Assembly: GCA_963666275.2 (NCBI GenBank)
Contig: CAXXOA010000002.1
Location: forward strand, 1,248,001 to 1,312,000
DNA from: Oceanispirochaeta sp.
GTDB lineage: Bacteria; Spirochaetota; Spirochaetia; DSM-2461
Length of the DNA stretch: 64,000 bases
Direction of reading: 5' to 3'
Each line of letters begins with the position of its first letter. Within the stretch, counting starts at the first letter, position 1. Shown one piece after another: positions 44,836 to 61,428 of this stretch. The position numbers and the translations under genes were made by a program. A model generated the notes under the pieces. It was not told the origin of the DNA, made no database searches, and worked only from the letters and a program-made list of their open reading frames with translations.

Positions 44836-45762
44836 TTATCCCAACACATCCAGGATGTTCCGGACGGCGGATTCTGTGGCCCGGTCGACGCTCTCGGAGG
44901 TAAAACCGCCAATATGGGATGTCAGGATAACCTTGGGATGCATAAGCAGGGGAGTCAGGGCAGGCGGTTCTGATTCAAACGCATCCACCGCGTATCCCGA
45001 AACACTGCCGCTGTCCAGAGCGCTCAGAAGGGCTTTCTGGTCAACAAGCTGAGCCCTTGCGGTGTTCACGAGATAGCATCCCTTTTTCATTCTTTTTATA
45101 ACCTCCTCATCAATAAGAGGTTTCTCTCCTGCCGGACAGTGGAGGGTTATGATATCGCTTTTTGAAAGAACCTCTTCCAGAGCGGCATAACGGAAAGAAG
45201 GAATCCTTTCGGGCAGAGTTTCATCAGGATAGAGGTCGTACCCCAGAATATTCATATCCATTCCGGCTGCCATCTTTGCCACATACCGGCCTATCTGTCC
45301 GGTACCGATAATGCCCAGTGTTTTACCTTCCGCTTCAATACCCTTGGCCCTTTCCCAGCCGCCGTTTTTAATAGAAAGGCTGGTCTGGGGAACAGACCGG
45401 ATCAGAGTCAGCATCAGCGTAATTGCCAGTTCCGCCACGCCCCGGGAGTTCGCCCCTCTGGCGACCTGCAGGGCTATTCCCATCTCTTCAGCGGCTTTTC
45501 TGTCCACATTGTCTATCCCCACACCGTTCCGGCTGATTACTTTCAGGTTCGGGCACTGTCTCAAAACCCGGGAGCTTACTTTCTCGACTCCCGCCAAGTA
45601 CCCGATACAGCCGGGGAGGACTCTGGCTAGATCCTCTTCTCCCGGCTGCTTTCCGGGAAAAGGGGTCAATACTTCGTATCCCGCTTTTTCCAGTTCCTTC
45701 AGATAGGGATGGCCGTTCTTACTCAGAGACCGGGGGGTTACCAGGATCTTTCCTTTGCTCAT
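44836..45762 (-). CDS. D-isomer-specific 2-hydroxyacid dehydrogenase (phosphoglycerate dehydrogenase-like, no ACT domain)
   Basis: ISRNGVGIDNVD, GIIGTGQIG, LHCP, VNTAR, DAFESEP, TSHIGG. Confidence 0.92.
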   Translation of the reverse strand: MSKGKILVTPRSLSKNGHPYLKELEKAGYEVLTPFPGKQPGEEDLARVLPGCIGYLAGVEKVSSRVLRQCPNLKVISRNGVGIDNVDRKAAEEMGIALQVARGANSRGVAELAITLMLTLIRSVPQTSLSIKNGGWERAKGIEAEGKTLGIIGTGQIGRYVAKMAAGMDMNILGYDLYPDETLPERIPSFRYAALEEVLSKSDIITLHCPAGEKPLIDEEVIKRMKKGCYLVNTARAQLVDQKALLSALDSGSVSGYAVDAFESEPPALTPLLMHPKVILTSHIGGFTSESVDRATESAVRNILDVLG

Positions 45763-45772
45763 AAAAGTCCTC

Positions 45773-46357
45773 TCAGTTTCCCCATTTCGGGTTATCTACA
45801 ACCGCCCAGCTGCCGTTTTTCTCAATCACCAGCTTCCGGAATCCTTTTTCTTTGATGGAGCCGTAGTCGTGGCCTGCATCGGCCCGGAAGACATAGAATG
45901 TGATCAGAGTCTCTGTATCGGAAAGGTTGATGCTTCTGTGAGCGTATCGGCCGGGTACATAGACTGCCTGGCCGGGACGCATCTCCTTGTAGATCACGTC
46001 CCCTTCGGGGCTTTCCATCATCATCATGCCGTATCCGGCCTGGCAGTAGTAAATTTCTGCGGTATCAAGAATCGTATGGAAGTGGCCGTTGGTCATGTGG
46101 TATTCGTCTCCCACTTTCCCGGGGTAGACAATACTGGTTCCGAAGCAGAGATCGCCCTCTTTTTCAGGAACTCCAAAATCATAAAAACGGTAGATCAGTT
46201 TATTCCCATTCTCTTCCAGCTTCTGCCTGGCTTCTTCATCAAAGTACATATTTTTCATATCCGAGCAGCGTCTTTCCAGAGGATAGATACTGTCGGCCAG
46301 TCCCGTGACGGGATCAAAGTGGGTCGGGGTAACGACATAATCGGGAAAATTCATCAT
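45773..46357 (-). CDS. Cupin-type (archaeal-like) glucose-6-phosphate isomerase family protein
   Basis: YPGKVGDEYHMTNGHFH, AEIYY, YVPGRYAHRSIN, ADAGHDYG. Confidence 0.9.
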   Translation of the reverse strand: MMNFPDYVVTPTHFDPVTGLADSIYPLERRCSDMKNMYFDEEARQKLEENGNKLIYRFYDFGVPEKEGDLCFGTSIVYPGKVGDEYHMTNGHFHTILDTAEIYYCQAGYGMMMMESPEGDVIYKEMRPGQAVYVPGRYAHRSINLSDTETLITFYVFRADAGHDYGSIKEKGFRKLVIEKNGSWAVVDNPKWGN

Positions 46358-47308
46358 TCAGCTCCTTGTTGAGGCGGCGATATCCGAAAGCTTTTCGAAC
46401 TCCGGTCCGCTGGTGGGGATATCAATGTGGAAGACTTCGGCAATGACTCTGGTCCATCCGTGTATGAAATAGAACCATCCGTCTTCAATGCGGAGATTCT
46501 TCTTTGTCTTCTGGGCTTTGGCCTGGTCAAGAAAAATCAGATCTCCCCTGTAGTTGAAGTCCCAGACAACCGCTTTTTCGGGAAAATCAACCTTATCAGT
46601 GAGTGGAGAACCGGGACGGTCCTTACCGAGGCCGGTGGCATTGGCTATGAGGGATCCCGGTTTCAGTTGGGCAACAACTTTATCGTTATCCGAAGGGGAG
46701 GGACAGAGATAGTAGTCAAAGCTGATATCCGTACCCAATTTTCTGTGAATCTCCTTCATTTCATTTAAACGTGGTTCAGACCGGTTGCTTATGATGATCC
46801 TGGCCGGGACGGTACCGCCGTTTTTTTTCTTGTTAATCAGGTAGAGAGTCAGAGCCAGTGAGGATCCTCCGGCACCCAGTATGTGCAGGTCCGCCCCGGA
46901 CTCCTTCCAGTAGGCATCGTCTGCAATGGCGTCCAGGGAAAGCCCGCTTGTAATGGGATCCTTGGCATGGGCCCAGAGTTCTTTTCCCCTTTTGGATAGG
47001 GAACTGGCTTCATCCAGCAATTGGGCGTATTCGCCCCTGCCCTCAAAAAGGTCTCCACAGGCTTTGAGCAGATCCAGCTTGTGGGTCGTTACAAGGGCAC
47101 CCAGGGACAGTTCATCTTTTTTAATGAATTCCACAGCTTCCCTATATTGCTCCGGAGCAGAGTGGGGTTCGAAATCGAAGCCTTTGATAACCGCGTTGAG
47201 TCCAAGGTGCTCCGCCCACTTGGGGAATACTTTCATAATGGAAGATTTACCGGTAGTGACGCCTATGAAGTACATGGTCCTTTCTTTTGCCGGTGTGTAA
47301 TCGTTCAT
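46358..47308 (-). CDS. Shikimate dehydrogenase-like oxidoreductase (non-AroE subfamily)
   Basis: LVTTHK, AKDP, GAGGS, NATGLG, WDFNY, DGW; lacks the AroE HSxSP and NTD motifs. Confidence 0.75.
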   Translation of the reverse strand: MNDYTPAKERTMYFIGVTTGKSSIMKVFPKWAEHLGLNAVIKGFDFEPHSAPEQYREAVEFIKKDELSLGALVTTHKLDLLKACGDLFEGRGEYAQLLDEASSLSKRGKELWAHAKDPITSGLSLDAIADDAYWKESGADLHILGAGGSSLALTLYLINKKKNGGTVPARIIISNRSEPRLNEMKEIHRKLGTDISFDYYLCPSPSDNDKVVAQLKPGSLIANATGLGKDRPGSPLTDKVDFPEKAVVWDFNYRGDLIFLDQAKAQKTKKNLRIEDGWFYFIHGWTRVIAEVFHIDIPTSGPEFEKLSDIAASTRS

Positions 47309-47333
47309 GTAACACTCCTGTTCTTTCTGTTGT

Positions 47334-47467
47334 CATTTGATATCGATATTTGTTAGATACTGGAATGTTACACCCCTTGTTTTAGCATGTCAACAATAAA
47401 TGATAACAAATGCTTGACAAATGATAATGTTGAGCCTATCCTGCTAATAGGAAATAATAGCAAATAA
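47334..47467. promoter_or_regulatory. Back-to-back promoters with phased CAAATG repeats
   Basis: Plus TTGACA (47414)-N17-TATCCT; minus TTGACA (47393-47388)-N17-TAACAT. (C/T)AAATG at 47397, 47407 and 47418; an inverted copy at 47334-47339. Confidence 0.7.
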
Positions 47468-47485
47468 TAATAAGTGGAGAATGAA

Positions 47486-48106
47486 GTGGATATTTTTTCC
47501 CGTTTAGAAGAAGAACGTCTTGTCCCGGTTATTAAGCTGGAGACCCCGGAACAGGCATTGCCTCTCGTGGATGCCCTCTCCGCCGGTGGAATTAACGTCG
47601 CCGAAGTGACATTCAGAACCGATGCAGCCGCTGCATCCATTAAAGCAATCCGTAAAAACCGGCCTGATATCCTTGTGGGGGCCGGCACAGTTCTGGCTCT
47701 GGCTCAGCTTGATGCGGCTCTCGAAGCGGAGGCGTCGTTTATTGTGGCTCCCGGATACAATCCAGCCATTGTGGCCGCCTGTATCAAAAAAGGGGTTCCC
47801 ATCGTACCCGGTGTAACCAATCCTTCCCAGATTGAAGTCGCTATGCATGCAGGGCTGAAGGTTCTGAAGTTTTTCCCAGCCTCACTGTCGGGGGGGATCC
47901 CCATGCTGAAGGCTTTTGGCTCAGTCTATAATGCCCGGTTCATGCCCACAGGCGGTTTGAATGCGGATAATTTTACAGACTATCTGGCTCTTCCCAATGT
48001 GGTTGCCTGTGGAGGCAGCTGGATGGTGAAGGCGGAATATATCAATAAGGGGCAGTACGGGAAAATAACCGAACTCAGCGCTGCTGCAAAAGCGAGGATC
48101 AAATGA
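47486..48106 (+). CDS. eda: KDPG/KHG aldolase
   Basis: AEVTFRT, VGAGTV, PGVTNPSQI, LKFFPA, FMPTGG, ACGGSW; GTG 47486 has a GGAG SD (alternative start 47474). Confidence 0.94.
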   Translation: MDIFSRLEEERLVPVIKLETPEQALPLVDALSAGGINVAEVTFRTDAAAASIKAIRKNRPDILVGAGTVLALAQLDAALEAEASFIVAPGYNPAIVAACIKKGVPIVPGVTNPSQIEVAMHAGLKVLKFFPASLSGGIPMLKAFGSVYNARFMPTGGLNADNFTDYLALPNVVACGGSWMVKAEYINKGQYGKITELSAAAKARIK

Positions 48107-49119
48107 AGTCACAGGTGAATGTTGCTGTCATAGGAAGCGGTCGGGCCGGGATGATTCATGCCCGGAATTTCGCCCGTTCCATATCGGGAGGAAGGCTGGT
48201 TGCCATGATAGACCCGGTAGAAGATGCCGTCAGAGCGGCTGTGGATGAGCTGGGCATAGACAAATACTATCTGGATTACAGGGAAGCTCTGGCAGATAGG
48301 GATATTGATGCTGTCGTTGTTGTCACACCCACAGCCTATCATAGAGATATCGTCGTAAATGCGGCCTCTGCAGGGAAGCATATCCTTTGTGAAAAGCCCA
48401 TGGCCATGACTGAACAGGAGTGCCGGGACATGATTACTGCCGCAGATAAAGGAGGGGTGAAACTCCAGCTGGCTTTTATGCGCCGGTTTGACGAGAGCTT
48501 CCGCCATGCCAAAGAACGGATTGATGCCGGAGAGATCGGCGATGTGGTCTGTGTCAAATCCCTGACCCATGGTCCCAGCATTCCCCGTCCCTGGATGTAC
48601 GATATCCGGAAGAGCAACGGTCCTCTGGCGGAAGTGAGTTCACACGATATCGATGCCCTACACTGGTACAGCGGCAGTTATATCAAAGAGGTTTATGCCA
48701 TTGCGGGGAACTACAGATGTCCTGATGCAGAAGAGGAATATCCTGATTTTTATGACAATGTCCTCATGAACTGCCGTTTCAAAAACGGGGCTCAGGGAAT
48801 GGTGGACGGAGCTCAGGGCGTATTGTACGGCTACGATTCCCGAGTGGAGATTCTGGGTACCAGAGGGATTATCCATGTGGGGAAAAATCAGAACTTCAGT
48901 GTCTTGACCTGCACTCCCGAGGGAATTCACACCCCTTTTGTGAAAAGCTGGCAGAATCTCTTTATAGATGCCTATCGAGGGGAGGATAAAGCTTTTGTGG
49001 ACTGTATTCTCAATGATACAGAGCCTGAGGTTACGGGAAGGGACGGTCTGGAAGCTGTAAAGGTTGTTAATGCGGGAAACAGGTCTATCATCGAAAAGCG
49101 GCCTGTCATTCTGGAATGA
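48103..49119 (+). CDS. Gfo/Idh/MocA oxidoreductase (inositol 2-dehydrogenase-like)
   Basis: GSGRAG, CEKP, FMRRFD, SHDID, YGYDSRVE. Confidence 0.9.
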   Translation: MKSQVNVAVIGSGRAGMIHARNFARSISGGRLVAMIDPVEDAVRAAVDELGIDKYYLDYREALADRDIDAVVVVTPTAYHRDIVVNAASAGKHILCEKPMAMTEQECRDMITAADKGGVKLQLAFMRRFDESFRHAKERIDAGEIGDVVCVKSLTHGPSIPRPWMYDIRKSNGPLAEVSSHDIDALHWYSGSYIKEVYAIAGNYRCPDAEEEYPDFYDNVLMNCRFKNGAQGMVDGAQGVLYGYDSRVEILGTRGIIHVGKNQNFSVLTCTPEGIHTPFVKSWQNLFIDAYRGEDKAFVDCILNDTEPEVTGRDGLEAVKVVNAGNRSIIEKRPVILE

Positions 49120-49156
49120 TGAAACTTTCTTTTAGAAGAAATCAAGGAGAGAATAG

Positions 49157-50194
49157 ATGAAAGCAGCACGACTGTATGGTATAGAGGATATCAGAGTGGA
49201 GGATCTCGCTGTACCTGAAATAACAGAGGAGGAAGTTCTTATCAGAGTAAAAGCCTCTTTTATCTGCGGGACAGATGTGAGATTTTTTAAAACCGGTAAA
49301 CCCGGTGCTTCCGATCAGCCGCTGGTAGCAGGCCATGAAATTGCAGGAGTTATCGAGAAGGTGGGCGCCAATGTGACCGGGTACTCTGTGGGCATGCGGG
49401 TGGGAGTGGCTCCCAATTACGGATGCGGAGTCTGTGATCTGTGTACCAGCGGGAATTCTCATATGTGCCTGGAATCCGAGGCTCTGGGGGTAACCGTTGA
49501 CGGCGGCTTTGCGGAATATATGAAAGTCCCCGCCCGGGCAGTGGCTCAGGGAAACATCTCTCCTCTGGAGGAGAGCATCAGTTTTGAGGAAGCTGCCCTG
49601 GCTGAGCCTCTCTCCTGTGTTTATAATGCCTATGAGAAAATCGGGATTTATCCGGGAGATCATGTCCTGGTCATCGGAGCCGGTCCTATCGGTCTTATGC
49701 ACATCAAGGTGGCCTTTCTGGCAGGGGCATCTGCAGTCTATGTGACAGATCTCAGTGAGGAGCGCCTGGCATTAGCCAAATCCCTTGTTCCGGATGTTCA
49801 GATTCTGAGTAATGAGGGTCTTATGGATTCTGTTAAAAAGGTCACCGGCGGACGGCTGATGAACCTTGTTATTACAGCTGCTTCTGTTCCGGTGATCCAG
49901 GAAAATGCTTTTAAATACGTCGGTCTTGATGGACGGGTAATGTTTTTCGGCGGTCTGCCCAAAGGAAAGTCGGAAGTGAAACTGGATACCAATGAGATCC
50001 ATTACAAACAGCTTACCGTAGCGGGAACAACCCGGCAGAGCCTGCGGCAGTACCGAACCTGCCTTAAACTGATCGCGTCGGGACGTCTGAAAGTGTCAGA
50101 TCTGGTGACATCTTCGTCACCTCTGGAGAATCTCAGCGACGTTATTGCCAATGTGGCCGCAGGAAAAGGCCTGAAAAGCGTAATTAAGGTATAA
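49157..50194 (+). CDS. Zn-dependent (MDR) polyol dehydrogenase
   Basis: ICGTD, GHE, C-x2-C-x2-C-x7-C structural Zn site, EPLSC, GAGPIG. Confidence 0.92.
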   Translation: MKAARLYGIEDIRVEDLAVPEITEEEVLIRVKASFICGTDVRFFKTGKPGASDQPLVAGHEIAGVIEKVGANVTGYSVGMRVGVAPNYGCGVCDLCTSGNSHMCLESEALGVTVDGGFAEYMKVPARAVAQGNISPLEESISFEEAALAEPLSCVYNAYEKIGIYPGDHVLVIGAGPIGLMHIKVAFLAGASAVYVTDLSEERLALAKSLVPDVQILSNEGLMDSVKKVTGGRLMNLVITAASVPVIQENAFKYVGLDGRVMFFGGLPKGKSEVKLDTNEIHYKQLTVAGTTRQSLRQYRTCLKLIASGRLKVSDLVTSSSPLENLSDVIANVAAGKGLKSVIKV

Positions 50195-50218
50195 TAATCA
50201 GAAAAGGAGCCAGCCATT

Positions 50219-51739
50219 ATGGGCAAGGGATTACTGCTGGGGGTGGATATCGGTACCCAGGGAGTCAAGAGTTCTCTATTTGATCTGGACGGCAATTGTC
50301 TGTCCTCGGGGTTTATTGCTTCAAAACTGTATCAGCCGGAACCGGGGATTACAGAAGAAGATCCGGAGTTTCAGCTCGATTCGGTCTGCCGTTCTATCTC
50401 TTCCTGTCTGGAGGATGCTTCCGGTGTGAACCCGGAGGATCTCAAGTGTCTGGCCATAGACGGGCAGATGGCGGGAGTGATCGGAGTAGGAAAGGATGGA
50501 ATGAATGTGACTCCCTACGACTCCTGGCTGGATACCCGCTGTGCTCCCTATATACAACTGATGGAAGAGAAGGCCGGCGAAGAGATCATCCGCAAAACCG
50601 GTAATCCTCCGAGCTTTAATCATGGCCCGAAGATCCTCTGGTGGAAGCATGAGAGACCGGAGGTATACAAAAAAATTGCAGGCTTTGTTCAGCCGGCGGG
50701 TTATGCGGCCATGCGTCTGTGCGGGCTGAAAGGAAAGGATGCTTTCATTGATACAACCTATCTGCATTTTTCAGGCTTTGCGGATAACAGGAACAGTACC
50801 TGGGACAAAGGCCTTTTAAATCTTTTCGGGATCAGTGAAGAGATACTCCCCCGAATCGTCTCTCCGTCAGATATTATCGGACATCTTACGGATGAAATGG
50901 CAGCCCGGTGCGGACTTGCCGGACCGGTTCCGGTCGCCGCAGGCTGCGGGGATACGGCCGCGTCATTTCTCTCCTGCGGTGCGGTCGAGCCGGGTATCTG
51001 TGTTGACGTGGCCGGAACAGCCAGCGTCTTTGCGGCAACAACAGACGAGTTCTGCTGTGATACCGATACCAGGGTCATGGGCTGCGGGGCTTCCGTGACC
51101 GAAGGGCTCTGGCACCCCTATGCCTATATCAACGGCGGCGGGATGAATATCGAGTGGTTCCTCTCTGAAGTGATGGGGAGGGACCGGGGTGACAGGGACA
51201 GGTTTGAAGGCATGGAAAAGGACTCTCTGGAACCCCGGGACAGTGATCCTGTTTTCATTCCCCATATGGCCGGACGTGTCAGTCCCAGTCAGCCCTCGCT
51301 GAAAGGAACTTTTGCCGGTCTCAGCTGGAATCATACCCGGCAGGACATGTTCATGGCCATTATGGAGAGTGTCGCCCTTGAGTACGGGGTATACAGAAAG
51401 TCTCTTATGGGAATGTACGATGATTTGAGCCTTACAGAGCTGAGAATTACAGGTGGTGGAGAAAACAGCAGGATCTGGAAAGAGATGAAGGCGGGAGTTC
51501 TCCAGGTTCCGGTTGTGTCCATTGAACAGAATTTTGGAGCCCCCATGGGCGCTGCTATTGTCGCCGGAATTGCTTCGGGAGTTTTCTCATCCACCCTGGA
51601 GGCTGCAGGAAAGTGGATCAATACGAAAGATTCTGTTTTCTGCCATTCCAGGCTGTATGGACATTTTGAGAACCGTGTCGGCCGGTATGAATCTCTGCTG
51701 ACCCATATGAATCGCTACTATACAGGAGCGGAAGAGTGA
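50219..51739 (+). CDS. FGGY-family (xylulokinase-like) carbohydrate kinase
   Basis: GVDIGTQGVK, WLDTR, GCGDT, AGTAS, TGGG. Confidence 0.92.
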   Translation: MGKGLLLGVDIGTQGVKSSLFDLDGNCLSSGFIASKLYQPEPGITEEDPEFQLDSVCRSISSCLEDASGVNPEDLKCLAIDGQMAGVIGVGKDGMNVTPYDSWLDTRCAPYIQLMEEKAGEEIIRKTGNPPSFNHGPKILWWKHERPEVYKKIAGFVQPAGYAAMRLCGLKGKDAFIDTTYLHFSGFADNRNSTWDKGLLNLFGISEEILPRIVSPSDIIGHLTDEMAARCGLAGPVPVAAGCGDTAASFLSCGAVEPGICVDVAGTASVFAATTDEFCCDTDTRVMGCGASVTEGLWHPYAYINGGGMNIEWFLSEVMGRDRGDRDRFEGMEKDSLEPRDSDPVFIPHMAGRVSPSQPSLKGTFAGLSWNHTRQDMFMAIMESVALEYGVYRKSLMGMYDDLSLTELRITGGGENSRIWKEMKAGVLQVPVVSIEQNFGAPMGAAIVAGIASGVFSSTLEAAGKWINTKDSVFCHSRLYGHFENRVGRYESLLTHMNRYYTGAEE

Positions 51740-52596
51740 AAAAGAGTATTTCTCTTTCCCAAGAGAACATAGATATCTCCGCCTATGGGAGCTGGCAGGG
51801 GCAGGGGGTGGCTCTCTGGTGGCTGGGGCAGGCAGGTTTTCTTATCTGTTCAGGCAATCTGAAGATTCTTGTGGATGCCTACCTGTCCGATGCCCTTGCC
51901 GAAAAATACAGGGGGCAAATGTTTCCGCACATAAGGATGATGGCTCCTCCGCTTTCCATGGAATCTCTGGATGATATCGATTTCTGTATAAGTTCTCACG
52001 CCCATTCGGACCACCTTGATCCGGGACTGCTGCCGGTTTTAAGCAGAGTCAGTCCTGCCTGTCGATTTATTGTGCCCGAAGCGGCACTTTCCACAGCCCT
52101 TGAAAGAGGGGTCCCCGGGGATCGCCTGATTGGTATGGATGCAGGATCTTTTCTCTCCCTGGGAGACAATGCGGAGATCCGGGCTGTCCCGGCTGCTCAT
52201 GAGGAGCTGCTACTTGATGATGGGGGGAGACATTTCTTTCTGGGTTATATTCTGGAACTGGGAGATTTCAGGATCTATCATCCCGGAGACTGCATTCCCT
52301 ACGACGGACTTGATCAATGGCTGGAAAACCGAAATATAGATCTGGCTCTTATGCCTGTAAACGGACGAAGGGAAGATCTCAGTAGCCGGGGGATTGCAGG
52401 GAATTTCTCTCTGGAGGAAGCCTATCAAATAGTTCTGGACCATGATATAACTTATCTGATCCCCCACCATTACGGTATGTTTGATTTCAACACGCTGTCC
52501 AGGGAAAAACTTGATGAGTTCATACAGGTCAGGAATACGGGCCAGCGTGTTCATCCCGCCGAAACAGGGGTAATGTACAACCTAATCAGGATTTAA
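51736..52596 (+). CDS. Metallo-beta-lactamase-fold hydrolase, UlaG (ascorbate-6-P lactonase)-like
   Basis: WWLGQAGF, SHAHSDHLD, YHPGD, PVNG, IPHHYGMF. Confidence 0.85.
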   Translation: MKKSISLSQENIDISAYGSWQGQGVALWWLGQAGFLICSGNLKILVDAYLSDALAEKYRGQMFPHIRMMAPPLSMESLDDIDFCISSHAHSDHLDPGLLPVLSRVSPACRFIVPEAALSTALERGVPGDRLIGMDAGSFLSLGDNAEIRAVPAAHEELLLDDGGRHFFLGYILELGDFRIYHPGDCIPYDGLDQWLENRNIDLALMPVNGRREDLSSRGIAGNFSLEEAYQIVLDHDITYLIPHHYGMFDFNTLSREKLDEFIQVRNTGQRVHPAETGVMYNLIRI

Positions 52597-52598
52597 CT

Positions 52599-53399
52599 AT
52601 GAGTAACCAGAATGGAACAACCCTCTTTGCGGAGGAGCGGAAAAAAAGGATCGTAGAGTATATCAATGAAAAAAGAAGGGTGACCGTACCCGAACTCTGT
52701 TCCGCGTTTTCCGTTTCCGGTGCCACCATGAGAAATGATCTTCGCGAACTGGGAGAAACCGGTCTTATCACCCGTACCCATGGCGGGGCTATAAGAAAAT
52801 CCCGTACAGGATACGAACCTGTGATGGATATCCGTTCCGAAAAGAATCTGGATGCCAAAAAACTGATAGCCCTGGCTGCCCTGGGTGAAGTGGAGGATGG
52901 AGATACCATCATTCTGGATACAGGAACCACTGTGAAGGAACTGGCCGGACTTCTGGGGGAGAAAAAGAACCTGACTGTTGTTACCAACGATATAAAGGTA
53001 GCGGCGCTCCTGGAGGAATTCTCTTCCTGCGAGGTGCTTGTTATCGGTGGATTGCTCAGAAAGGGGTTTCACTGCACTGTGGGGTATAGAATGTTTACCA
53101 GCCTTGAATCCCTTTCGGTGGATAAGGCCTTTCTGGGGGCAAACTCCTTTTCTGCAGGGAAAGGCGCCAGCACTCCTGATATTTCCCAGTCCGAAATCAA
53201 GCAGCATATGATTAAGATCGCCGCAAAAGTTATTATTCTCTGCGATCAGACCAAGCTTGAAACCGATTCTTTCATCAATTTTGCCTCACCTGAGCAGGTG
53301 GATCTGCTTGTCACCGATTCTATTTCAGAAGACTTGCGGAAGCTCTATGAAGATCTTGATATCAATGTCCTCAGTGCTGAGAATACCAGTAAACAGTGA
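52599..53399 (+). CDS. DeoR-family transcriptional regulator
   Basis: VSGATMRNDL...RTHGGA, LDTGTT. Confidence 0.95.
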   Translation: MSNQNGTTLFAEERKKRIVEYINEKRRVTVPELCSAFSVSGATMRNDLRELGETGLITRTHGGAIRKSRTGYEPVMDIRSEKNLDAKKLIALAALGEVEDGDTIILDTGTTVKELAGLLGEKKNLTVVTNDIKVAALLEEFSSCEVLVIGGLLRKGFHCTVGYRMFTSLESLSVDKAFLGANSFSAGKGASTPDISQSEIKQHMIKIAAKVIILCDQTKLETDSFINFASPEQVDLLVTDSISEDLRKLYEDLDINVLSAENTSKQ

Positions 53400-53516
53400 T
53401 AATGAGCTGAAATCATCTTTTCCTCCCCTATAGGTCGGGACTCCCTTCCATTCTCCAGCGTTGAAGTTTCTCAGAGCCTATGATATCGTTGTAGATATTT
53501 TTGAAAGGATAGAGAA

Positions 53517-53534: not shown

Positions 53535-53539
53535 TTGAT

Positions 53540-54547
53540 ATGGCCAATTTGAAAGATGTTGCTAAACTAGCCGGTGTTTCCGTCGCTACTGCCTCACAGG
53601 CGCTAAACGGAAAAAGTGTGAATGAAAAAACCCGGCAGAAAGTTCTCGAATGCGCGGACAAGCTGAATTACGTCCCCAACCGGGGGGGCAGGACCCTTAT
53701 CACCGGGAAGAGTAATTCTATCCTTCTGGTCATTATCAATTCCACCAAATATACGGATCTTATCAAGGAAAATACCTTTTTCTATAACTATATGATGGGC
53801 ATCCTGACGGAAGTGCAGAAAAGGGATTACAACTTTCATCTGGAAGTGAAAAGCTGGGATGATCCGGAGCTTCTGTCCTTTTTTCGAAACCGCTGCCGTG
53901 ACAGGTCTTCTGATGGTATGATTATCATTCCCCAGTATATCAGGTCCTATGGATTCCTTCCGTTTATAGAAAAATTCCCCCATGTGGTGCTGAACCCCTG
54001 TATTCAGGATCCCAAAATGAATTTTGTTATGGTTGAGCATGACTATGGCGGTCAGATTGTGGCAGATCTTGTTATGGAGAAAGGTTTTAAGAATATCGGA
54101 GTTATTCATGGTCCTCAGGATCATTTTGATGCGGAGTGCAGAAAGGAAGGTTTTATGAACCGCCTGATGAGCCGCGGGATATTCCTCCCCGAAGATAGGC
54201 AGTTCTATAGTGATTTCACTATAATGAGCGGCTATGAGGGAGCCGCGAAAATCCTGACAGCCAACCCCGATCTGGATGTTCTTGTCTGCTGTAACGATTT
54301 TGTCGCCTCCGGAGCAATCAAATACGCCTGGTATGCCGGATTGAATGTTCCCGGGGATCTTGCTGTCATCGGCTATGATAACGTGGATATCTCCCGGGCG
54401 GTGACTCCCGGAATAACAACCGTTGATGCCAGACTTCAGGAAGTCGGCGGAGCCATGGCAAGACTGCTGTTCAGGCAGATCGAAGAGGGGGAGACTCATC
54501 TGAGAGAGTATATCCGCCCCGAACTGGTTCTCCGGGAATCTGTATAA
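53540..54547 (+). CDS. LacI-family transcriptional regulator
   Basis: LKDVAKLAGVSVATASQALNG...LNYVPN; VPGDLAVIGYDN. Confidence 0.96.
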   Translation: MANLKDVAKLAGVSVATASQALNGKSVNEKTRQKVLECADKLNYVPNRGGRTLITGKSNSILLVIINSTKYTDLIKENTFFYNYMMGILTEVQKRDYNFHLEVKSWDDPELLSFFRNRCRDRSSDGMIIIPQYIRSYGFLPFIEKFPHVVLNPCIQDPKMNFVMVEHDYGGQIVADLVMEKGFKNIGVIHGPQDHFDAECRKEGFMNRLMSRGIFLPEDRQFYSDFTIMSGYEGAAKILTANPDLDVLVCCNDFVASGAIKYAWYAGLNVPGDLAVIGYDNVDISRAVTPGITTVDARLQEVGGAMARLLFRQIEEGETHLREYIRPELVLRESV

Positions 54548-54665: not shown

Positions 54666-55541
54666 ATGAAAATAGGAATTGACAGCTACTGTTTCCACCG
54701 TCTTTTCGGGGAAGTGTACGATGATCAGAAAGCCCCTTCCAACAAAATATCCCTCGAGTGGTTTATAAAACGGGCCCATGAACTGGGTGTGGACGGAGTC
54801 TCTCTGGAGTCCTGCTTCATTCCCCGCTTTGACGGCAGCTATCTCAGTGAGATCAGGGGAATGCTTGATGAATACGGAATGGACCGTGTGTATGCCTGGG
54901 GGCATCCCGACGGACTGGAAGGCGGAGGTAATGAAGCCGCCTGGGATGACATGATGAAGCATATGGAGTACGCCGAGGCGATCGGAGCCGATGTTATGAG
55001 GGTCTGCGGTTCGAGCCTGATGTTCCGCTTCGGAGATCATGAAAAGCAGCTGGAACTCCTGACTAGGATGTTTCAGAATGCCATGCCTGCAGCCGTATCA
55101 AAAGGGATTAAAATTGCGGATGAAAATCATATTGATTACAACTCGGATGAAATGCTCCGTCTGATCCATCAGGTCAACTCTCCCAACTTTGGAATCAACT
55201 TTGATACAGGGAATTTCATGAGAGTCCTGGACGACCCGGTGGAGGGCATGAAAAAGCTGGCACCCTATGTTTTTTCCACCCATATCAAAGACCTCAAACC
55301 CCAGGCGAACTGCGGTGTGGGCAGCTGGCATTTCTTTGCCTGTACGCCCACCGGTGAAGGGCTTGTGGACAATCTGGCTCTGGCGAGGATGCTGAAAGAT
55401 GTGGACTACAAGGGGTTCCTGGCTATGGAAATTGATTATCTGCATGAGGACTTCAGAAACAACTGGTCTGATGATGATGAAGATAAGGCTGTTGCTGCCT
55501 CTGTCGCGGAATTGAAAAGGATTGTAAAGGAAGTCGGCTGA
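54666..55541 (+). CDS. Sugar-phosphate isomerase/epimerase (xylose-isomerase-like TIM barrel, IolE/AP-endonuclease-2 family)
   Basis: ADENH, NFDTGN, THIKD, GEG, LAMEID metal ligands. Confidence 0.88.
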   Translation: MKIGIDSYCFHRLFGEVYDDQKAPSNKISLEWFIKRAHELGVDGVSLESCFIPRFDGSYLSEIRGMLDEYGMDRVYAWGHPDGLEGGGNEAAWDDMMKHMEYAEAIGADVMRVCGSSLMFRFGDHEKQLELLTRMFQNAMPAAVSKGIKIADENHIDYNSDEMLRLIHQVNSPNFGINFDTGNFMRVLDDPVEGMKKLAPYVFSTHIKDLKPQANCGVGSWHFFACTPTGEGLVDNLALARMLKDVDYKGFLAMEIDYLHEDFRNNWSDDDEDKAVAASVAELKRIVKEVG

Positions 55542-55602: not shown

Positions 55603-56757
55603 ATGAAAAAATTGAATATAGCCCTTATCGGCTACAAGTTTATGGGGAAGGCCCATAGCAATGCCTGGAAAAAAGCGCCGTTATTTTTTGATATGGAAAC
55701 AGTTCCGGTGCTGAAGGTCGTTTGCGGTCGTCACAAAGAGCCTCTGCAGGAGTTCGCCGACAGGTGGGGTTGGGAAGAGGTTGAAACCGACTGGCGGAAA
55801 GTAATTGCCCGGGATGATATCGATGTGGTTGATATTTCCGTCCCCCAGCACCTTCACTACGAAATAGCAAAAGAGGCTGTAAAAGCGGGAAAGCATGTTT
55901 TTTTGGAAAAACCTATGGCCATGAATACTGAACAGGCCCGGGAATTGTATGAACTGGTAAGGAATGCCAACATCACTCACTACGTCAATCATAATTACAG
56001 ACGCTGCCCTGCCGTGAGGCTGGCAAAAAAACTGATCGATGAAGGGAAAATCGGACAGATCTTTCACTGGAGAGGAGCCTACCTCCAGGACTGGATTGTA
56101 GATCCCGAGTTCCCTCTGACCTGGCATCTGAAAAAGGAAACAGCGGGCATGGGACCCCAGGGGGATCTCAACTCTCACAGTGTTGACCTGGCAAGATATC
56201 TGGTTGGAGAAATCTCCTCTGTGAGCTGCATGACCACCAATTTTATCAAAGAGCGGACTCTGCCGGATGAAGAAGCTTCGGGAACCTTCAACGGAAAATC
56301 CGCCGGAACCGCCAAAGGGGAAGTCACCGTGGAGGATGCAGCTTTCATGATCTGCAGATTCGAAAACGGAGCCCTCGGTTCCTTTGAGACAACCCGCTTC
56401 GCTCCGGGAAGAAAAAATTATAACTACTTTGAGATCTACGGAAGCAAGGGGAGCCTGATTTTCGATCTGGAACGGATGAATGAGCTTCAGTATTTCAACA
56501 GGGAAGATCCTGCAGGAGAGCAGGGGTTCCGTACGATCATGGCCACCGAAGCCGAACATGATTACATTGCCAACTGGTGGCCCCCCGGACATATCATCGG
56601 TTATGAACATGAATTCGTCCATGCGGTTGTGGATTTCTGCGAAGCCGTCCGGACAGGACGGGAAATCAGGCCGAACTTCTATGACGGATTAAAAGAGATG
56701 CAGGTCCTTGAGGCAGGCCTGGATTCTGCCGAGAAAGGCCGGGAAATTTCAATCTGA
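55603..56757 (+). CDS. Gfo/Idh/MocA oxidoreductase (levoglucosan-dehydrogenase-like clade)
   Basis: IGYKFMGKAHS, LEKP, NYRR, YLQDW, DLNSH, WWPPGH. Confidence 0.9.
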   Translation: MKKLNIALIGYKFMGKAHSNAWKKAPLFFDMETVPVLKVVCGRHKEPLQEFADRWGWEEVETDWRKVIARDDIDVVDISVPQHLHYEIAKEAVKAGKHVFLEKPMAMNTEQARELYELVRNANITHYVNHNYRRCPAVRLAKKLIDEGKIGQIFHWRGAYLQDWIVDPEFPLTWHLKKETAGMGPQGDLNSHSVDLARYLVGEISSVSCMTTNFIKERTLPDEEASGTFNGKSAGTAKGEVTVEDAAFMICRFENGALGSFETTRFAPGRKNYNYFEIYGSKGSLIFDLERMNELQYFNREDPAGEQGFRTIMATEAEHDYIANWWPPGHIIGYEHEFVHAVVDFCEAVRTGREIRPNFYDGLKEMQVLEAGLDSAEKGREISI

Positions 56758-56825: not shown

Positions 56826-57806
56826 GTGAACAGAGTAAACAAAGGCGCCCTCACTATGGAGCGTCTGAAACAGGGGCCTATCCCGCTGGGACTCTATGGT
56901 GCCCTCGGCGGGATTGTTGTCATTGCGATAATCATCAATATGACCATAGGCGTGAATTTTTTTAATCCCGGAAATCTATTGAATGTGGGACGGAACTATT
57001 CCATGGTGGCCATTGCCGCTATGGGGCAGACATTTGTTATTATTTCGGGAGGTCTGGATCTCTCTGTGGGAGCCGTCATTTCCACATCCAATGTTGTAGC
57101 CGCCACCTATATGGTTTCCAACAGCATGATTTTCCCGGTTCTGCTTCTCTGCCTGCTTCTGGGAACCCTTGCGGGACTTATCAACGGATACCTTGTAACT
57201 AAGCGGAATGTTCCGCCCTTTATAGCCACCCTGGGGGTCTCCATAATCATAAACGGGCTCCGTCTTATCTGGACCAATGGAATGCCCAGAGGGTCTATTC
57301 CTGACGGCCTCAAAGCCTTCAGTACAGGGAACAGCCTCGGTGTTTTTCCCAATCTGTTTCTGCTGTTTCTGGTTCTGGGAGTGATTTATTCGGTTATCCT
57401 GGGGCGTTCGGGATACGGGCGGCGACTCTATGCGATCGGTAACAATAAGAGGGTCGCCTACCTCAGCGGGGTCAGGACAGACAGGGAAGTTATCATTGCT
57501 TATGTGATCTGCTCAACAGCCGCGGCGGTGGTGGGAATCCTTCTGGGCGGATATACGGGACTTTCTGATAACTGGGTCGGAAAAGGATATGATCTGGATT
57601 CCATTGCCTATGCGGTTCTGGGCGGAGCTGTTATCGGGGGTGGTTCGGGCACCATACAGGGAACCATGCTGGGGGGCTTCATAATGCTTATGATTACCAA
57701 CCTGGTCCTGCTGGCGAGTATGCCCCTGGAAAGCCAGCTTATCATTCGGGGCCTGGTCATTATTGTTGCGCTTTACCTGTCGAACAGGAAGAGGAATACA
57801 GCCTGA
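56826..57806 (+). CDS. Monosaccharide ABC transporter permease (RbsC-type)
   Basis: GGLDLSVG, PPFIATLG, GRRLYAIGNN, IAYAVLGG. Confidence 0.94.
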   Translation: MNRVNKGALTMERLKQGPIPLGLYGALGGIVVIAIIINMTIGVNFFNPGNLLNVGRNYSMVAIAAMGQTFVIISGGLDLSVGAVISTSNVVAATYMVSNSMIFPVLLLCLLLGTLAGLINGYLVTKRNVPPFIATLGVSIIINGLRLIWTNGMPRGSIPDGLKAFSTGNSLGVFPNLFLLFLVLGVIYSVILGRSGYGRRLYAIGNNKRVAYLSGVRTDREVIIAYVICSTAAAVVGILLGGYTGLSDNWVGKGYDLDSIAYAVLGGAVIGGGSGTIQGTMLGGFIMLMITNLVLLASMPLESQLIIRGLVIIVALYLSNRKRNTA

Positions 57807-57833
57807 GTTCAGGCAAAAAGAAGGAGAAAAGTT

Positions 57834-58853
57834 ATGCGTAATCTTAAAAGGATGGTAGGGGTTCTTCTGATGATGCTGTGTGCTGCAGCCGTTTTCGGAG
57901 AAGGACAGAAAGACGGCGGGCAGGCCGCCCCGAAGACAGATGACATTGTTGTCGGCTTCAGCTGCGCCGGGATGGGAAATTCCTGGAGGATGTTCATGAA
58001 AGCCAATTTCGATGCGGAAGTGGCAAAACACCCCGAAATTTCAAAAGTCTATTTTACCAATGCCGATGAAAAGCCGGAGAAACAGGCTGCCGATATAAGC
58101 GATCTGCTGGCCAAGGGGGTGGATCTTCTGATCATACAGCCTTCCATCGGCGCTGCCATAGTTCCGGCAGTGGAGGAAGCCTACAATACGGGAATTCCCG
58201 TTATTGTATTTGACGGAACAGTTCCCACAGACAATATTACCGCCTATGTAGGACAGGATATGAAGAAACTGGGAGCCCATTATGCGGAAGCCCTGATCGA
58301 TATGATGGGCGAAGAAGGCAAGATTGTTCTTATGAGCGGAATTGCCGGTCAGATGTCTGTGGAATTGAGGCTTGAAGGGGCCAAAGAAGTTTTTGCCAGA
58401 TATCCCGGGATTGAAATTCTGGGAACCCAGTATACAGGCTGGTCCATTCCAAAGGCCAAGGAGATTATGCAGGGCTTCCTTCAGGCCTATCCCGAGATCG
58501 ACGGTATCTGGGCCGATTCAGGGCTGATGTCCTTTCCGGCTCTTGAAACCATGAAGGAAGCGGGTCGGCCTCTGGTTCCCACCACGGGAGACCATCTTAA
58601 CGGTTATGCGAAATTCCTGGTGGCCAACGATGTTCCGGGATATATCGAGCCTTATTCAACAAGGCAGGGTGCCTGGGCCCTTGTGGAAGGACTCAAGGCG
58701 GTTAAGGGAGAGACTATCCCGTCTAGGATTCTCAAGGATCCCGATACCTATGATTTCGAGAAGATCAAACAGTTCGTGGATATGGAAAAGTCCGACTGGT
58801 GGTGGCTGGGTGATGATCAGATTCCGGCCGAGTTTCTGCCTGAAATTGACTAA
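57834..58853 (+). CDS. Monosaccharide ABC transporter substrate-binding protein (RbsB-type)
   Basis: Signal peptide; NSWR, GVDLLII, GIPVIVFD. Confidence 0.93.
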   Translation: MRNLKRMVGVLLMMLCAAAVFGEGQKDGGQAAPKTDDIVVGFSCAGMGNSWRMFMKANFDAEVAKHPEISKVYFTNADEKPEKQAADISDLLAKGVDLLIIQPSIGAAIVPAVEEAYNTGIPVIVFDGTVPTDNITAYVGQDMKKLGAHYAEALIDMMGEEGKIVLMSGIAGQMSVELRLEGAKEVFARYPGIEILGTQYTGWSIPKAKEIMQGFLQAYPEIDGIWADSGLMSFPALETMKEAGRPLVPTTGDHLNGYAKFLVANDVPGYIEPYSTRQGAWALVEGLKAVKGETIPSRILKDPDTYDFEKIKQFVDMEKSDWWWLGDDQIPAEFLPEID

Positions 58854-58862
58854 ATAAAATAT

Positions 58863-58890
58863 AGCCGGCCGCTTTGATACGGCCGGTTTA
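58863..58890 (+). terminator. Stem-loop after the binding-protein gene (mRNA stabiliser or partial terminator)
   Basis: AGCCGGCCG-N8-CGGCCGGTT. Confidence 0.55.
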
Positions 58891-58907
58891 GACAAATGGA
58901 GATTGTT

Positions 58908-60440
58908 ATGTCCGAAATACAGCCCCTATTGGAGTTCAGGAATATTTCAAAGTCTTTTCCGGGTGTCAAAGCTCTCAATAATGTGAATATGAATTTCAGA
59001 AAAGGGGAGGTGCATGCGCTCGTGGGAGAGAACGGAGCGGGCAAATCTACGCTGATGAAGATCCTTTCCGGAGTGTATCAGCCAAGCAGTGGGCAGATTG
59101 TCTACAACGGGGAGGACGTCCAGATCAGAAATCCCCATGAAGCCCAATTGATGGGGATATCCATCATATTCCAGGAATTCAGCCTGATCAGTCATCTGGA
59201 TGTGGTTTCCAATGTATTCCTGAACAGGGAACCGGTTGGATTCGGCGGATTCAAAGATAAAAATCTGGCTAAGCGGAAGACTCTTGAACTTTTTGAGCGG
59301 ATGGGAGTCGAAGTGGATACCGGTAAATTGATTTCGGAACTGAGCGTGGTGGAGCAGCAGCTCGTGGAGATTGCCAAAGCCCTTTCGGTCACTTCCCGGG
59401 TGCTTATCATGGACGAGCCTTCCGCGCCTCTGACAGACAAGGAACTTACCAAACTTTTTGCTATCATCCGCTCCCTCAGAAAAGAAGGAGTTACGGTTAT
59501 TTACATTTCCCATATGCTTGAGGAGGTGTTTGAAATAGCCGACAAAGTCACTGTGCTGAAAGACGGAGAAGTCACCCACACCGATGACGTCGCTAATATG
59601 ACCAAAGACCTTCTGGTTCAAAAGATGGTAGGCAGGGAGATCGGCGATATTTATCCTGATCCGGGTACCCCTTTGGACAGGGCTCTTCTGGAAGTGGAAA
59701 ATCTCAGCTGTGGAAAAAAGATTCAGGACGTCAGTTTTACCCTGAGAAAGGGGGAGATCCTCGGGCTGGCCGGAATGGTCGGTTCCGGAAGGTCAGAAGT
59801 CATCAAGGCTCTGATGGGACTGTTGAAAAAAGAGGACGGCAGAATTTCAGTTAACGGGAAAGATGTTTTCAACAATACTGTCCGGGAAGCCATTGCCAAC
59901 GGTTTCTACTATATACCATCCGATAGAAAGAAAGAGGGCATCATCGCCCCGATGAATATAAAAGAGAATACGACCATTGCCAATCTGGATGCCTATCTTA
60001 AAAGAGGGCTCATTAACAGGAAAACAGAAAATTCCGCGGCGTCTCAGGAAAACAGCAGGCTCAAGACAAAAACGTCATCCATGAGTGAGCTTATAAGAAA
60101 TCTCAGCGGCGGGAATCAGCAGAAAGTCCTTCTCGCAAGAGCTCTGCTGACCAACCCGGAAATTTTCTGCATTGTCGAGCCCACCAGAGGAATCGATGTG
60201 GGAGCCAAGCACGAGATATATAAAATCCTCAGAGACCTCTGTGAAGAGGGGAACTCAGTCATAATGGTTTCCTCCGAGCTCCCGGAGGTGATCGGCATGG
60301 CCGACAGGATCCTTGTTATGAAACAGGGCCGGGTTGCCGGAATTATTGATCAGTCCGGGGGGAAGGCTACAGAGGAGCAGGTCCTCTCTCTCGCCGTGGG
60401 CCATGAATACCGCCTGCATAAGAAGGAGGGAGCAAAATGA
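58908..60440 (+). CDS. Monosaccharide ABC transporter ATPase (RbsA-type, two ABC domains)
   Basis: GENGAGKST, MDEPS, LSGGNQQK, EPTRGIDVGAK, SSELPE. Confidence 0.96.
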   Translation: MSEIQPLLEFRNISKSFPGVKALNNVNMNFRKGEVHALVGENGAGKSTLMKILSGVYQPSSGQIVYNGEDVQIRNPHEAQLMGISIIFQEFSLISHLDVVSNVFLNREPVGFGGFKDKNLAKRKTLELFERMGVEVDTGKLISELSVVEQQLVEIAKALSVTSRVLIMDEPSAPLTDKELTKLFAIIRSLRKEGVTVIYISHMLEEVFEIADKVTVLKDGEVTHTDDVANMTKDLLVQKMVGREIGDIYPDPGTPLDRALLEVENLSCGKKIQDVSFTLRKGEILGLAGMVGSGRSEVIKALMGLLKKEDGRISVNGKDVFNNTVREAIANGFYYIPSDRKKEGIIAPMNIKENTTIANLDAYLKRGLINRKTENSAASQENSRLKTKTSSMSELIRNLSGGNQQKVLLARALLTNPEIFCIVEPTRGIDVGAKHEIYKILRDLCEEGNSVIMVSSELPEVIGMADRILVMKQGRVAGIIDQSGGKATEEQVLSLAVGHEYRLHKKEGAK

Positions 60441-61408: not shown

Positions 61409-61428
61409 ACAATGCAATGGAGTTTGAT

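What the first reader, a model, noticed from the sequence alone, without database searches (positions are those of the whole stretch)
44836..53399. Candidate new polyol/sugar pathway: Entner-Doudoroff-type aldolase with no dehydratase
Seen: two divergent operons sharing one control region encode a Gfo/Idh/MocA dehydrogenase, a Zn polyol dehydrogenase, an FGGY kinase, an archaeal-type cupin sugar-P isomerase, a non-AroE shikimate-DH-like enzyme, a UlaG-like lactonase, a 2-hydroxyacid dehydrogenase, a KDPG aldolase and a DeoR. No IlvD/Edd, UxuA or enolase-type dehydratase is present. I know no described pathway with this set. Inference, one consistent order: polyol to ketose, to ketose-P, to aldose-P (cupin), to lactone-P (SDH-like or Gfo), to aldonate-P (lactonase), to 2-keto-aldonate-P (hydroxyacid DH), then aldol cleavage. 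That would give the SDH-like family a sugar-phosphate role.
Basis: partly seen in the sequence, partly recalled or inferred. Interest (0 to 1): 0.75.

Follow-up and report, generated by a model that had tools for sequence, protein, structure and literature searches.

The report
Widespread dehydratase-free sugar breakdown route
This intact gene cluster carries six enzymes that travel together in many unrelated bacteria and likely break an unusual six-carbon sugar, most likely a 3-deoxy one, down to pyruvate by a variant of the Entner-Doudoroff route that I could not find described.

Summary
All nine genes are real, intact and divergently arranged as described. Six of them (FGGY kinase, cupin isomerase, shikimate-DH-fold enzyme, metallo-lactonase, 2-hydroxyacid DH, Eda) form a conserved core: all six occur in 29 of 47 well-flanked loci, including S. 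meliloti. The SDH-fold protein is not AroE: it keeps the catalytic Lys/Asp, but five shikimate-binding residues are replaced family-wide, and the genome has a separate AroE. A downstream TIM-barrel, a second Gfo, an ABC transporter and an AraA/FucI-fold isomerase (53540-62751) co-occur with this subtype. The aldolase looks ordinary: cluster copies are not one clade (AU p 0.005), have no diagnostic residues, and are often missing. That points to KDPG as product, hence a 3-deoxy hexose substrate needing no dehydratase (about 40%). The main rival is a D-psicose/altritol-series sugar cleaved to hydroxypyruvate. It is supported by psicose 3-epimerases in some loci and a binding-protein homologue that I recall bound to D-talitol. 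The substrate is unproven. Ten literature searches found no description. The scan noted this core before on other DNA.

The parts
44836..45762 (-). D-2-hydroxyacid dehydrogenase (SerA-like, no ACT domain); core; predicted aldonate-6-P 2-dehydrogenase
   Evidence: PF02826/PF00389; in 45 of 47 well-flanked loci; family-conserved TPRS, RNG, NTAR, EPP, H motifs
45773..46357 (-). Cupin-type phosphoglucose-isomerase homologue; core; predicted ketose-6-P/aldose-6-P isomerase
   Evidence: PF06560; 1J3P E 1.8e-55; metal-site His, Glu, His invariant in 73 of 73; 46 of 47 loci; genome has a classical PGI motif elsewhere
46358..47308 (-). Shikimate-DH-fold oxidoreductase of a separate family; core marker; predicted NADP-linked aldose-6-P 1-dehydrogenase
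   Evidence: fold; catalytic Lys/Asp kept, five binding residues replaced; at least 7994 relatives
47309..47473 (.). Shared divergent control region with two promoter-like sites and imperfect inverted repeats
   Evidence: consensus matches only
47474..48106 (+). KDPG/KHG aldolase (Eda), likely start 47486; ordinary active site
   Evidence: over NCBIfam cut-off; E45, R49, K133, T161, S184 as in E. coli Eda; 36 of 47 loci
48103..49119 (+). Gfo/Idh/MocA oxidoreductase (IolG-like, below cut-off); type-A front end
   Evidence: 281 of 355 bits; in 21 of 27 type-A loci and none of the other loci
49157..50194 (+). Zn-dependent polyol dehydrogenase; front end of types A and C
   Evidence: 23 of 27 type-A loci
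50219..51739 (+). FGGY kinase, type A (own subfamily, below XylB cut-off); predicted ketose 6-kinase
   Evidence: some FGGY kinase in 41 of 47 loci
51736..52596 (+). Metallo-beta-lactamase-fold hydrolase; core; predicted 6-phospho-lactonase
   Evidence: 39 of 47 loci; PTE-type or SMP-30-type proteins stand in some loci that lack it
52599..53399 (+). DeoR regulator
   Evidence: orthologues beside the core in relatives
53540..54547 (+). LacI regulator of the accessory operon; a palindrome at 54601-54637 follows a promoter-like site at 54570
54666..55541 (+). AP_endonuc_2 TIM barrel (epimerase, dehydratase or eliminase not resolved); accessory, co-conserved
   Evidence: PF01261; IolE model only 37 bits; 14 of 27 type-A loci
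55603..56757 (+). Second Gfo/Idh/MocA, closest model levoglucosan dehydrogenase (393 of 650 bits); accessory
   Evidence: 11 of 27 type-A loci
56826..61408 (+). Monosaccharide ABC transporter (permease, binding protein, ATPase, permease)
   Evidence: syntenic in G004 and G008
61417..62751 (+). Orphan protein with L-arabinose/L-fucose isomerase fold; predicted aldose-ketose isomerase; accessory
   Evidence: no Pfam hit; Foldseek 4F2D E 1.6e-21, TM 0.70; E266, D268, H324, H417, H418 invariant in 17 of 17; 14 of 27 type-A loci; in 8 of the 9 searched spirochaete genomes (own included) that have the SDH-like gene

Best explanation
The six core genes, which occur together in many phyla, likely form an oxidative Entner-Doudoroff-like route for a 3-deoxy hexose, predicted to run 3-deoxy-D-fructose to its 6-phosphate (FGGY), to 3-deoxy-glucose-6-P (cupin), to the lactone (SDH-fold enzyme, NADP), to 3-deoxy-gluconate-6-P (lactonase), to KDPG (2-hydroxyacid DH), to pyruvate plus glyceraldehyde-3-P (Eda). 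No dehydratase would be needed because C3 already lacks its hydroxyl. The Gfo, Zn-DH, TIM-barrel and AraA-fold genes would be interchangeable feeders that convert polyol, aldose or dicarbonyl forms into the kinase's ketose. Shown: gene content, folds, residues, co-occurrence, aldolase phylogeny. Inferred: every reaction and the substrate. I put the order of the core steps at about 0.7 and the 3-deoxy identity at about 0.4.
For: Core co-occurrence in 47 loci with at least 8 kb on each side of the SDH-like gene: cupin 46, HADH 45, FGGY 41, MBL 39, Eda 36, all six 29. The aldolase is ordinary. Cluster Edas are rejected as one clade (48 against 24 rows, p-AU 0.0046). No column separates 48 cluster from 23 other Edas, and the T161 position (recalled as the KDPG stereo-determinant) is kept in 47 of 48. 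Eda is the core gene most often missing (11 of 47) and is present in only 10 of 27 type-A loci. In G005 the cluster eda has lost residues 26-140 in place while neighbours stay 58-88% identical, and two full Edas lie elsewhere. The rhizobial-type regulators score best against HexR (244-284 bits, cut-off 296), recalled as a KDPG sensor. Lactone step: loci lacking the MBL carry a PTE-type (L074, L076, L062) or SMP-30-type (L056) protein. In G051 the cluster has no SDH-like gene and carries an aldehyde:ferredoxin oxidoreductase-like gene. No glycerate-kinase family was hit among 118 scanned neighbours. 3-Deoxyfructose is a real metabolite of 3-deoxyglucosone (PMC9960799, passage).
Against: D-psicose 3-epimerase-type genes sit in 3 of 84 loci (L052 over cut-off; inside the operon in L059), and a related TIM barrel sits in 5 more. 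A C3-epimerase has nothing to do on a 3-deoxy sugar. The rhizobial-type binding protein (11 loci) matches PDB 4RY9 at E 2.8e-105, next hit 5e-37; I recall its ligand as D-talitol, which has a C3 hydroxyl (not verified). One Desulfobacterales lineage has an enolase-family protein and a DeoC-like aldolase where HADH and Eda are missing, as expected if the aldonate still needs dehydrating. All 6 core-bearing genomes tested have a glycerate kinase elsewhere, so hydroxypyruvate could be disposed of. The window's genome has two IlvD/Edd-like, two UxaA/GarD-like and two enolase-like genes elsewhere. I know no abundant natural 3-deoxy hexose in marine habitats. G005 is a 360-contig assembly, so its broken eda may be an assembly error.
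Confidence: 0.4

Rival explanations
1. First reader's chemistry on a fully hydroxylated D-ribo sugar: D-altritol/allitol, D-altrose or D-allose is funnelled to D-psicose, then psicose-6-P, allose-6-P, 6-P-allonate and 2-keto-allonate-6-P, which Eda would cleave to hydroxypyruvate plus glyceraldehyde-3-P.
For: Psicose 3-epimerase-type genes in 3 loci, FucI-like (L052) and RhaA (L059) isomerases, and the AraA/FucI-fold accessory protein; these families are recalled to interconvert altrose, allose and psicose. Binding-protein homologue 4RY9, ligand recalled as D-talitol. C4/C5 configuration fits the T161-type Eda. Glycerate kinase is present in 6 of 6 tested genomes.
Against: Eda shows no special residues, is polyphyletic and is often absent, whereas a hydroxypyruvate-forming aldolase should be specialised and kept. 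A psicose 3-epimerase would make the oxidative route unnecessary for psicose. No glycerate kinase among 118 neighbours.
Confidence: 0.22
2. The substrate has a C3 hydroxyl, and the core delivers an aldonate(-6-P) that a dehydratase outside the operon, or the accessory TIM barrel, turns into KDG(P). The 2-hydroxyacid DH would serve C2 epimerisation or redox balancing.
For: Fits the ordinary Eda. An enolase-family gene replaces HADH and Eda in L146/L147. Enolase-type genes lie near L068 and L070 and an IlvD near L003. Ldh_2-family genes occur in L059 and L001. Several dehydratase families are present in the own genome. The TIM barrel at 54666 is untyped.
Against: No dehydratase family recurs in the 84 loci. 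The TIM barrel is absent from types B and C. HADH is kept in 45 of 47 loci without a recurring partner of opposite stereochemistry.
Confidence: 0.13
3. L-series route (L-sorbose, L-tagatose or 3-deoxy-L-threo sugar): the same steps end in L-glyceraldehyde-3-P, which HAD, GldA, AKR and a GlpK-like kinase would recycle through glycerol.
For: HAD in 11, GldA in 8 and a GlpK-like kinase in 12 of 84 loci. The lactonase resembles the L-ascorbate-6-P lactonase fold.
Against: The GlpK-like kinase has F270 changed to Ser/Thr in 12 of 12, so it is probably not a plain glycerol kinase, and it is the only kinase in those operons. Type A has none of these genes. An ordinary Eda favours D-GAP.
Confidence: 0.07
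4. Branched-chain sugar route (hamamelose/hamamelitol type): a glycerol-like branched end is phosphorylated and the final cleavage would give DHAP.
For: The type-C kinase keeps R83, E84, Y135 and D245 but has F270S/T (these five are the GlpK signature residues, PMC3245297 passage). Kinases in split-transketolase operons, recalled as apulose kinases, also have Ser there.
Against: An unmodified Eda is unlikely to take a tertiary C4. The other kinase types are xylulokinase-like. F270S could equally admit a longer linear chain.
Confidence: 0.06

Closest known systems
Entner-Doudoroff pathway (Zwf, Pgl, Edd, Eda)
   Same: Predicted sugar-6-P oxidation, lactone hydrolysis and KDPG cleavage by an Eda over the family cut-off.
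   Different: No Edd in the cluster. An SDH-fold enzyme stands where Zwf would, an MBL where Pgl would, and a 2-hydroxyacid DH where Edd would. The genome has its own Zwf elsewhere.
Shikimate dehydrogenase family (AroE, YdiB) and its sugar-acting member 5-ketofructose reductase (PDB 7COK/7COL)
   Same: Same fold (TM 0.69-0.74), catalytic Lys and Asp, NADP-type N-R-S motif.
   Different: 14-20% identity. S16, N59, N86, T101 and Q244 are replaced by I, L, S, K and G across the family, with a new Arg after the conserved Tyr. It lies in sugar-phosphate operons. KFR reduces a free diketo-sugar (PMC7954740 passages).
Cupin phosphoglucose isomerase of Thermococcales (PDB 1J3P, 1QXJ)
   Same: E 1e-52 to 1e-55, metal ligands invariant.
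   Different: Not the housekeeping PGI: a classical PGI motif is in the genome. In S. meliloti a pgi mutant has no PGI activity although pgiA1 and pgiA2 are present (PMC10433430 section 16). That L001's cupin is pgiA1 is recalled.
Pseudomonas 2-ketogluconate (kgu) route and PdxB step (recalled)
   Same: A D-2-hydroxyacid DH interconverting an aldonate phosphate and its 2-keto form.
   Different: Below the GhrB and PdxB cut-offs. Predicted direction is oxidative and feeds an aldolase directly.
D-altritol/galactitol and D-apiose pathways of rhizobia (Gerlt laboratory; recalled, papers not held)
   Same: ABC binding protein, polyol DH and ketose kinase as the entry.
   Different: Those end in tagatose-6-P epimerisation or transketolase; none is recalled to use cupin, SDH-fold, lactonase, hydroxyacid DH and Eda.

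Membership tests
AroE shikimate dehydrogenase | SDH two-domain fold | tested here: met
   Foldseek E 1.7e-16, TM 0.70
AroE shikimate dehydrogenase | Catalytic Lys65/Asp102 dyad | tested here: met
   K77 and D117 in 85 of 85 (Lys register from the HMM alignment)
AroE shikimate dehydrogenase | Shikimate-binding S14, S16, N59, T61, N86, T101, Y215, Q244 (list recalled) | tested here: not met
   S14, T61, Y215 kept; S16>I 80 of 85, N59>L, N86>S 85 of 85, T101>K 70 of 85, Q244>G 83 of 85
AroE shikimate dehydrogenase | Family HMM score | tested here: not met
   no Pfam or NCBIfam hit; separate AroE at C1:989140
AroE shikimate dehydrogenase | Activity on shikimate or quinate | not testable with these tools
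   needs an assay
KDPG/KHG aldolase (Eda) | Family score and E45, R49, K133, F135, T161, G162-G163, S184 | tested here: met
   over cut-off; all present in the window protein
Classical Entner-Doudoroff pathway | 6-phosphogluconate dehydratase Edd linked to Eda | tested here: not met
   Edd hit in 1 of 84 loci, on the opposite strand
Cupin PGI | PF06560 and metal ligands | tested here: met
Cupin PGI | F6P/G6P as physiological substrate | not testable with these tools
   context argues against it (PMC10433430)
UlaG L-ascorbate-6-P lactonase | Equivalog score | tested here: not met
   37.8 bits against 306; fold-level relative only
Myo-inositol (iol) pathway | IolG, IolE over cut-off; IolD, IolB, IolC present | tested here: not met
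   IolG 281/355, IolE 37/290; no IolD, IolB or IolC among the 16 genes scanned
Levoglucosan / glycoside 3-keto pathway | LgdA-type 3-dehydrogenase plus eliminase and hydratase | tested here: inconclusive
   second Gfo 393/650 bits; one untyped TIM barrel
AraA/FucI aldose-ketose isomerases (61417-62751) | Fold and metal-ligand-like residues | tested here: met
   invariant Glu, Asp, His; 9-14% identity and no Pfam hit, so a separate family

The most novel reading that the evidence does not exclude
The core is a cross-phylum salvage route for the products of non-enzymatic sugar damage (3-deoxyglucosone, 3-deoxyfructose, metasaccharinate-type sugars). It uses a third, SDH-fold kind of hexose-6-phosphate dehydrogenase and reaches KDPG by oxidation instead of dehydration. 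The scattered psicose epimerases, aldose isomerases, GldA/AKR reductases and DeoC-like aldolases would handle co-products of the same chemistry.
Probability: 0.25. Interest if true: 0.8.

Novelty: new variant of a known kind. Interest (0 to 1): 0.6.

Why it matters
These labels are probably wrong and mislead metabolic models. The locus exists in S. meliloti, so it can be tested directly. If right, it adds an Entner-Doudoroff variant that bypasses the Fe-S dehydratase, gives the SDH fold a sugar-phosphate reaction, and may show how bacteria use 3-deoxy sugars. A second orphan family (AraA/FucI fold, no Pfam) is attached.

Tried and rejected
True AroE: rejected. Housekeeping PGI: rejected (PMC10433430). 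Inositol pathway: rejected. Glycyl-radical enzyme as the missing dehydratase: a GRE follows the MBL in 1 of 84 loci (L019; closest solved relative glycerol dehydratase 1R8W). Of 51 metagenome loci found with it, only 3 near-identical ones carried core genes. It is at most a local feeder. My motif scan missed this GRE and Pfam found it. Absence of glycerate kinase as an argument: weakened, since 6 of 6 tested genomes have one elsewhere. Three untyped AP_endonuc_2 neighbours mean hydroxypyruvate isomerase is not excluded; 46 of 164 selected neighbours were not scanned. First ORF clustering chained through shadow ORFs and was redone. MAFFT misregistered two stretches of AroE, so the HMM alignment was used there. 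The careful Eda tree did not finish; quick trees were used. For one search I relabelled L118 as cluster after seeing its context and the first tree, and dropped a duplicate and a second L014 copy. PDB sequence searches for the SDH-like and AraA-fold proteins found nothing significant. ESM Atlas gave only generic names. Sequencing runs: no RNA holder listed. The profile search of representatives never returned. The ligand of 4RY9 could not be verified. Literature searches found no description of this gene set; the library lacks most subscription papers, and four papers I wanted (apiose, altritol, cupin-PGI, Thermotoga kinome) were not held. No supplements were read; fitness or transcriptome tables for the S. 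meliloti locus may exist there.

Full report
Observation. The nine ORFs are present and intact at the stated coordinates. The cupin matches archaeal cupin PGI at E 1.8e-55. The SDH-like protein hits no Pfam or NCBIfam model, but its AlphaFold model (pLDDT 92) matches shikimate dehydrogenases at TM 0.70 and 19% identity, with 5-ketofructose reductase at rank 9. Gene spacing and two back-to-back promoter-like sites in the 165-nt gap fit two divergent operons. The closest relatives of these proteins are from Spirochaetales records.

A conserved core with three front ends. Four plasmid-collection loci were added (4 of 15 hits). In the 47 of 84 loci with at least 8 kb on both sides, the cupin was present in 46, the 2-hydroxyacid DH in 45, an FGGY kinase in 41, the MBL in 39 and Eda in 36; all six were present in 29. 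The entry genes vary. Type A, the window's type (27 loci), has Gfo, Zn-DH and its own kinase. Type B (rhizobia) has SDRs, GldA, HAD, a xylulokinase-like kinase and a HexR-like regulator. Type C (actinobacteria, some rhizobia) has an SDR, two Zn-DHs and a GlpK-like kinase. Among 61 spirochaete genomes (own included), the SDH-like gene was found in 9 and the cupin in 10, the same 9 plus G051. These are kin and not independent.

The TIM barrel (54666), second Gfo (55603) and orphan 444-aa protein (61417) occur in 14, 11 and 14 of 27 type-A loci and in no type-B or type-C locus. In several planctomycete loci they are interleaved with the core in one gene string. The orphan folds like L-arabinose/L-fucose isomerase (E 1.6e-21) with invariant Glu, Asp and His residues. 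It is present in 8 of the 9 genomes with the SDH-like gene and in 4 without. In the window the module has its own LacI and promoter-like site, and in G004 it lies on another contig, so it is an accessory feeder. The TIM barrel could not be typed.

The SDH-fold enzyme. It keeps the catalytic Lys and Asp in 85 of 85 sequences and an NADP-type Arg in 84 of 85. It replaces S16, N59, N86, T101 and Q244 with I, L, S, K and G and adds an invariant Arg after the Tyr equivalent to Y215 (the list of AroE binding residues is recalled). The genome has its own AroE. By inference, a pyranose 6-phosphate overlays shikimate with the phosphate at the carboxylate site and the anomeric carbon at C3, which would make it an aldose-6-P 1-dehydrogenase. 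Two natural substitutions fit a lactone-forming step. Loci without the MBL sometimes carry a PTE-type or SMP-30-type protein. G051 has an aldehyde oxidoreductase-like gene in the cluster, no SDH-like hit, and only a 49-residue MBL match. A sugar role in the SDH family is already known for 5-ketofructose reductase (PMC7954740, passages), so only the sugar-phosphate role would be new.

What the aldolase says. If the pathway cleaved a fully hydroxylated 2-keto-aldonate phosphate, Eda would release hydroxypyruvate and should be specialised. It is not. The window's Eda groups with ordinary spirochaete and firmicute Edas (quick tree). One clade of cluster Edas is rejected (p-AU 0.0046; one row relabelled and two dropped, see Tried and rejected). 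No column separates 48 cluster from 23 other Edas, and all tested active-site residues match. Eda is the most often missing core gene. In G005 it carries an internal deletion while two full copies lie elsewhere, though that genome is fragmented. Type-B regulators are closest to HexR but below its cut-off. The simplest reading is that the product is KDPG. With a 2-hydroxyacid DH and no dehydratase, that means the substrate already lacks the C3 hydroxyl.

Results against. D-psicose 3-epimerase-type genes lie in 3 of 84 loci and a related TIM barrel in 5. FucI-like and RhaA isomerases lie in L052 and L059. The type-B binding protein has one very close solved relative, 4RY9, whose ligand I recall as D-talitol; I could not verify this, and a screening ligand can be an analogue. 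One Desulfobacterales lineage has an enolase-family protein and a DeoC-like aldolase and lacks HADH and Eda in the locus. Glycerate kinases exist elsewhere in 6 of 6 tested core-bearing genomes, and several dehydratase families exist in the window's genome. The type-C kinase has F270S/T in 12 of 12, shared with presumed apulose kinases, which leaves a branched substrate open. A glycyl-radical enzyme lies beside the core in only one lineage here.

Literature. Ten full-text searches found no description of this set. I read passages of PMC7954740, PMC3245297, PMC9960799 and PMC12525153, and one passage and section 16 of PMC10433430. That section shows that an S. meliloti pgi mutant has no PGI activity although pgiA1 and pgiA2 are present. 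The apiose, altritol, cupin-PGI and Thermotoga kinome papers were not held; what I say of them is recalled. Most subscription papers are outside the library, and no supplements were read.

Verdict. A real, widespread sugar-catabolic module that I could not find described, best read as a dehydratase-free Entner-Doudoroff variant. Order of core steps about 0.7; 3-deoxy substrate about 0.4; psicose/altritol series with hydroxypyruvate release 0.22; external dehydratase 0.13. It is a new variant of a known kind. Interest 0.6: every part is from a known fold and the substrate is unproven, but the module is common, probably mislabelled in databases, and testable in a model organism with one decisive assay (KDPG reduction by the hydroxyacid DH).

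Noticed in passing
window 61417-62751 (+): A 444-aa family with no Pfam or PDB sequence hit folds like L-arabinose/L-fucose isomerase. It also occurs beside an MFS gene in G032 and G035, where the core was not found.
   Followed up: partly
L146:1301-11195 and L019: Desulfobacterales variant: enolase-family gene, DeoC-like aldolase, kinase, SDH-like, cupin, MBL, glycyl-radical enzyme and activase, with no HADH or Eda in the locus.
   Followed up: partly
L001:21654-23952, L070, L078, L146: A DeoC-like aldolase with an altered first motif (IDISAVQ) travels with one kinase subclade across alphaproteobacteria and Desulfobacterales.
   Followed up: partly
L077:8485-9984 and 11 other loci: GlpK-like kinases over the glycerol-kinase cut-off carry F270S/T in 12 of 12, as do kinases in split-transketolase operons (L142, L143); the GlpK label is probably wrong.
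   Followed up: partly
L137:3418-5283 (G051); L100:3089-4921 (G058): An aldehyde:ferredoxin oxidoreductase-like gene sits inside the cluster; in G051 the SDH-like gene was not found.
   Followed up: partly
L138 (G005:C6:17826-18100): Cluster eda with an internal deletion inside an otherwise intact operon.
   Followed up: yes
L060:19414-20915, L061:1276-3071: A second, divergent SDH-like plus MBL gene pair lies next to the main cluster in two Microbacteriaceae.
   Followed up: no
window 43474-44751 (+): Glycosyltransferase resembling mannosylglucosylglycerate synthase (261 of 640 bits), with two paralogues in the genome; not conserved beside the core except a 37% homologue in G037.
   Followed up: no
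L001 (CP090106.1): The record is titled pSymB but is 3.7 Mb, the size I recall for the S. meliloti chromosome; probably a mislabelled replicon.
   Followed up: no
G000:C2:1313499-1314494, just past the window: A second binding protein 52% identical to the one at 57834, behind a sensor kinase/response regulator pair; same order in G004.
   Followed up: no
window 53515-53536 and 54601-54637: Related palindromes (core AAACGTTTT) lie before lacI and before the TIM-barrel gene; candidate LacI operator.
   Followed up: no
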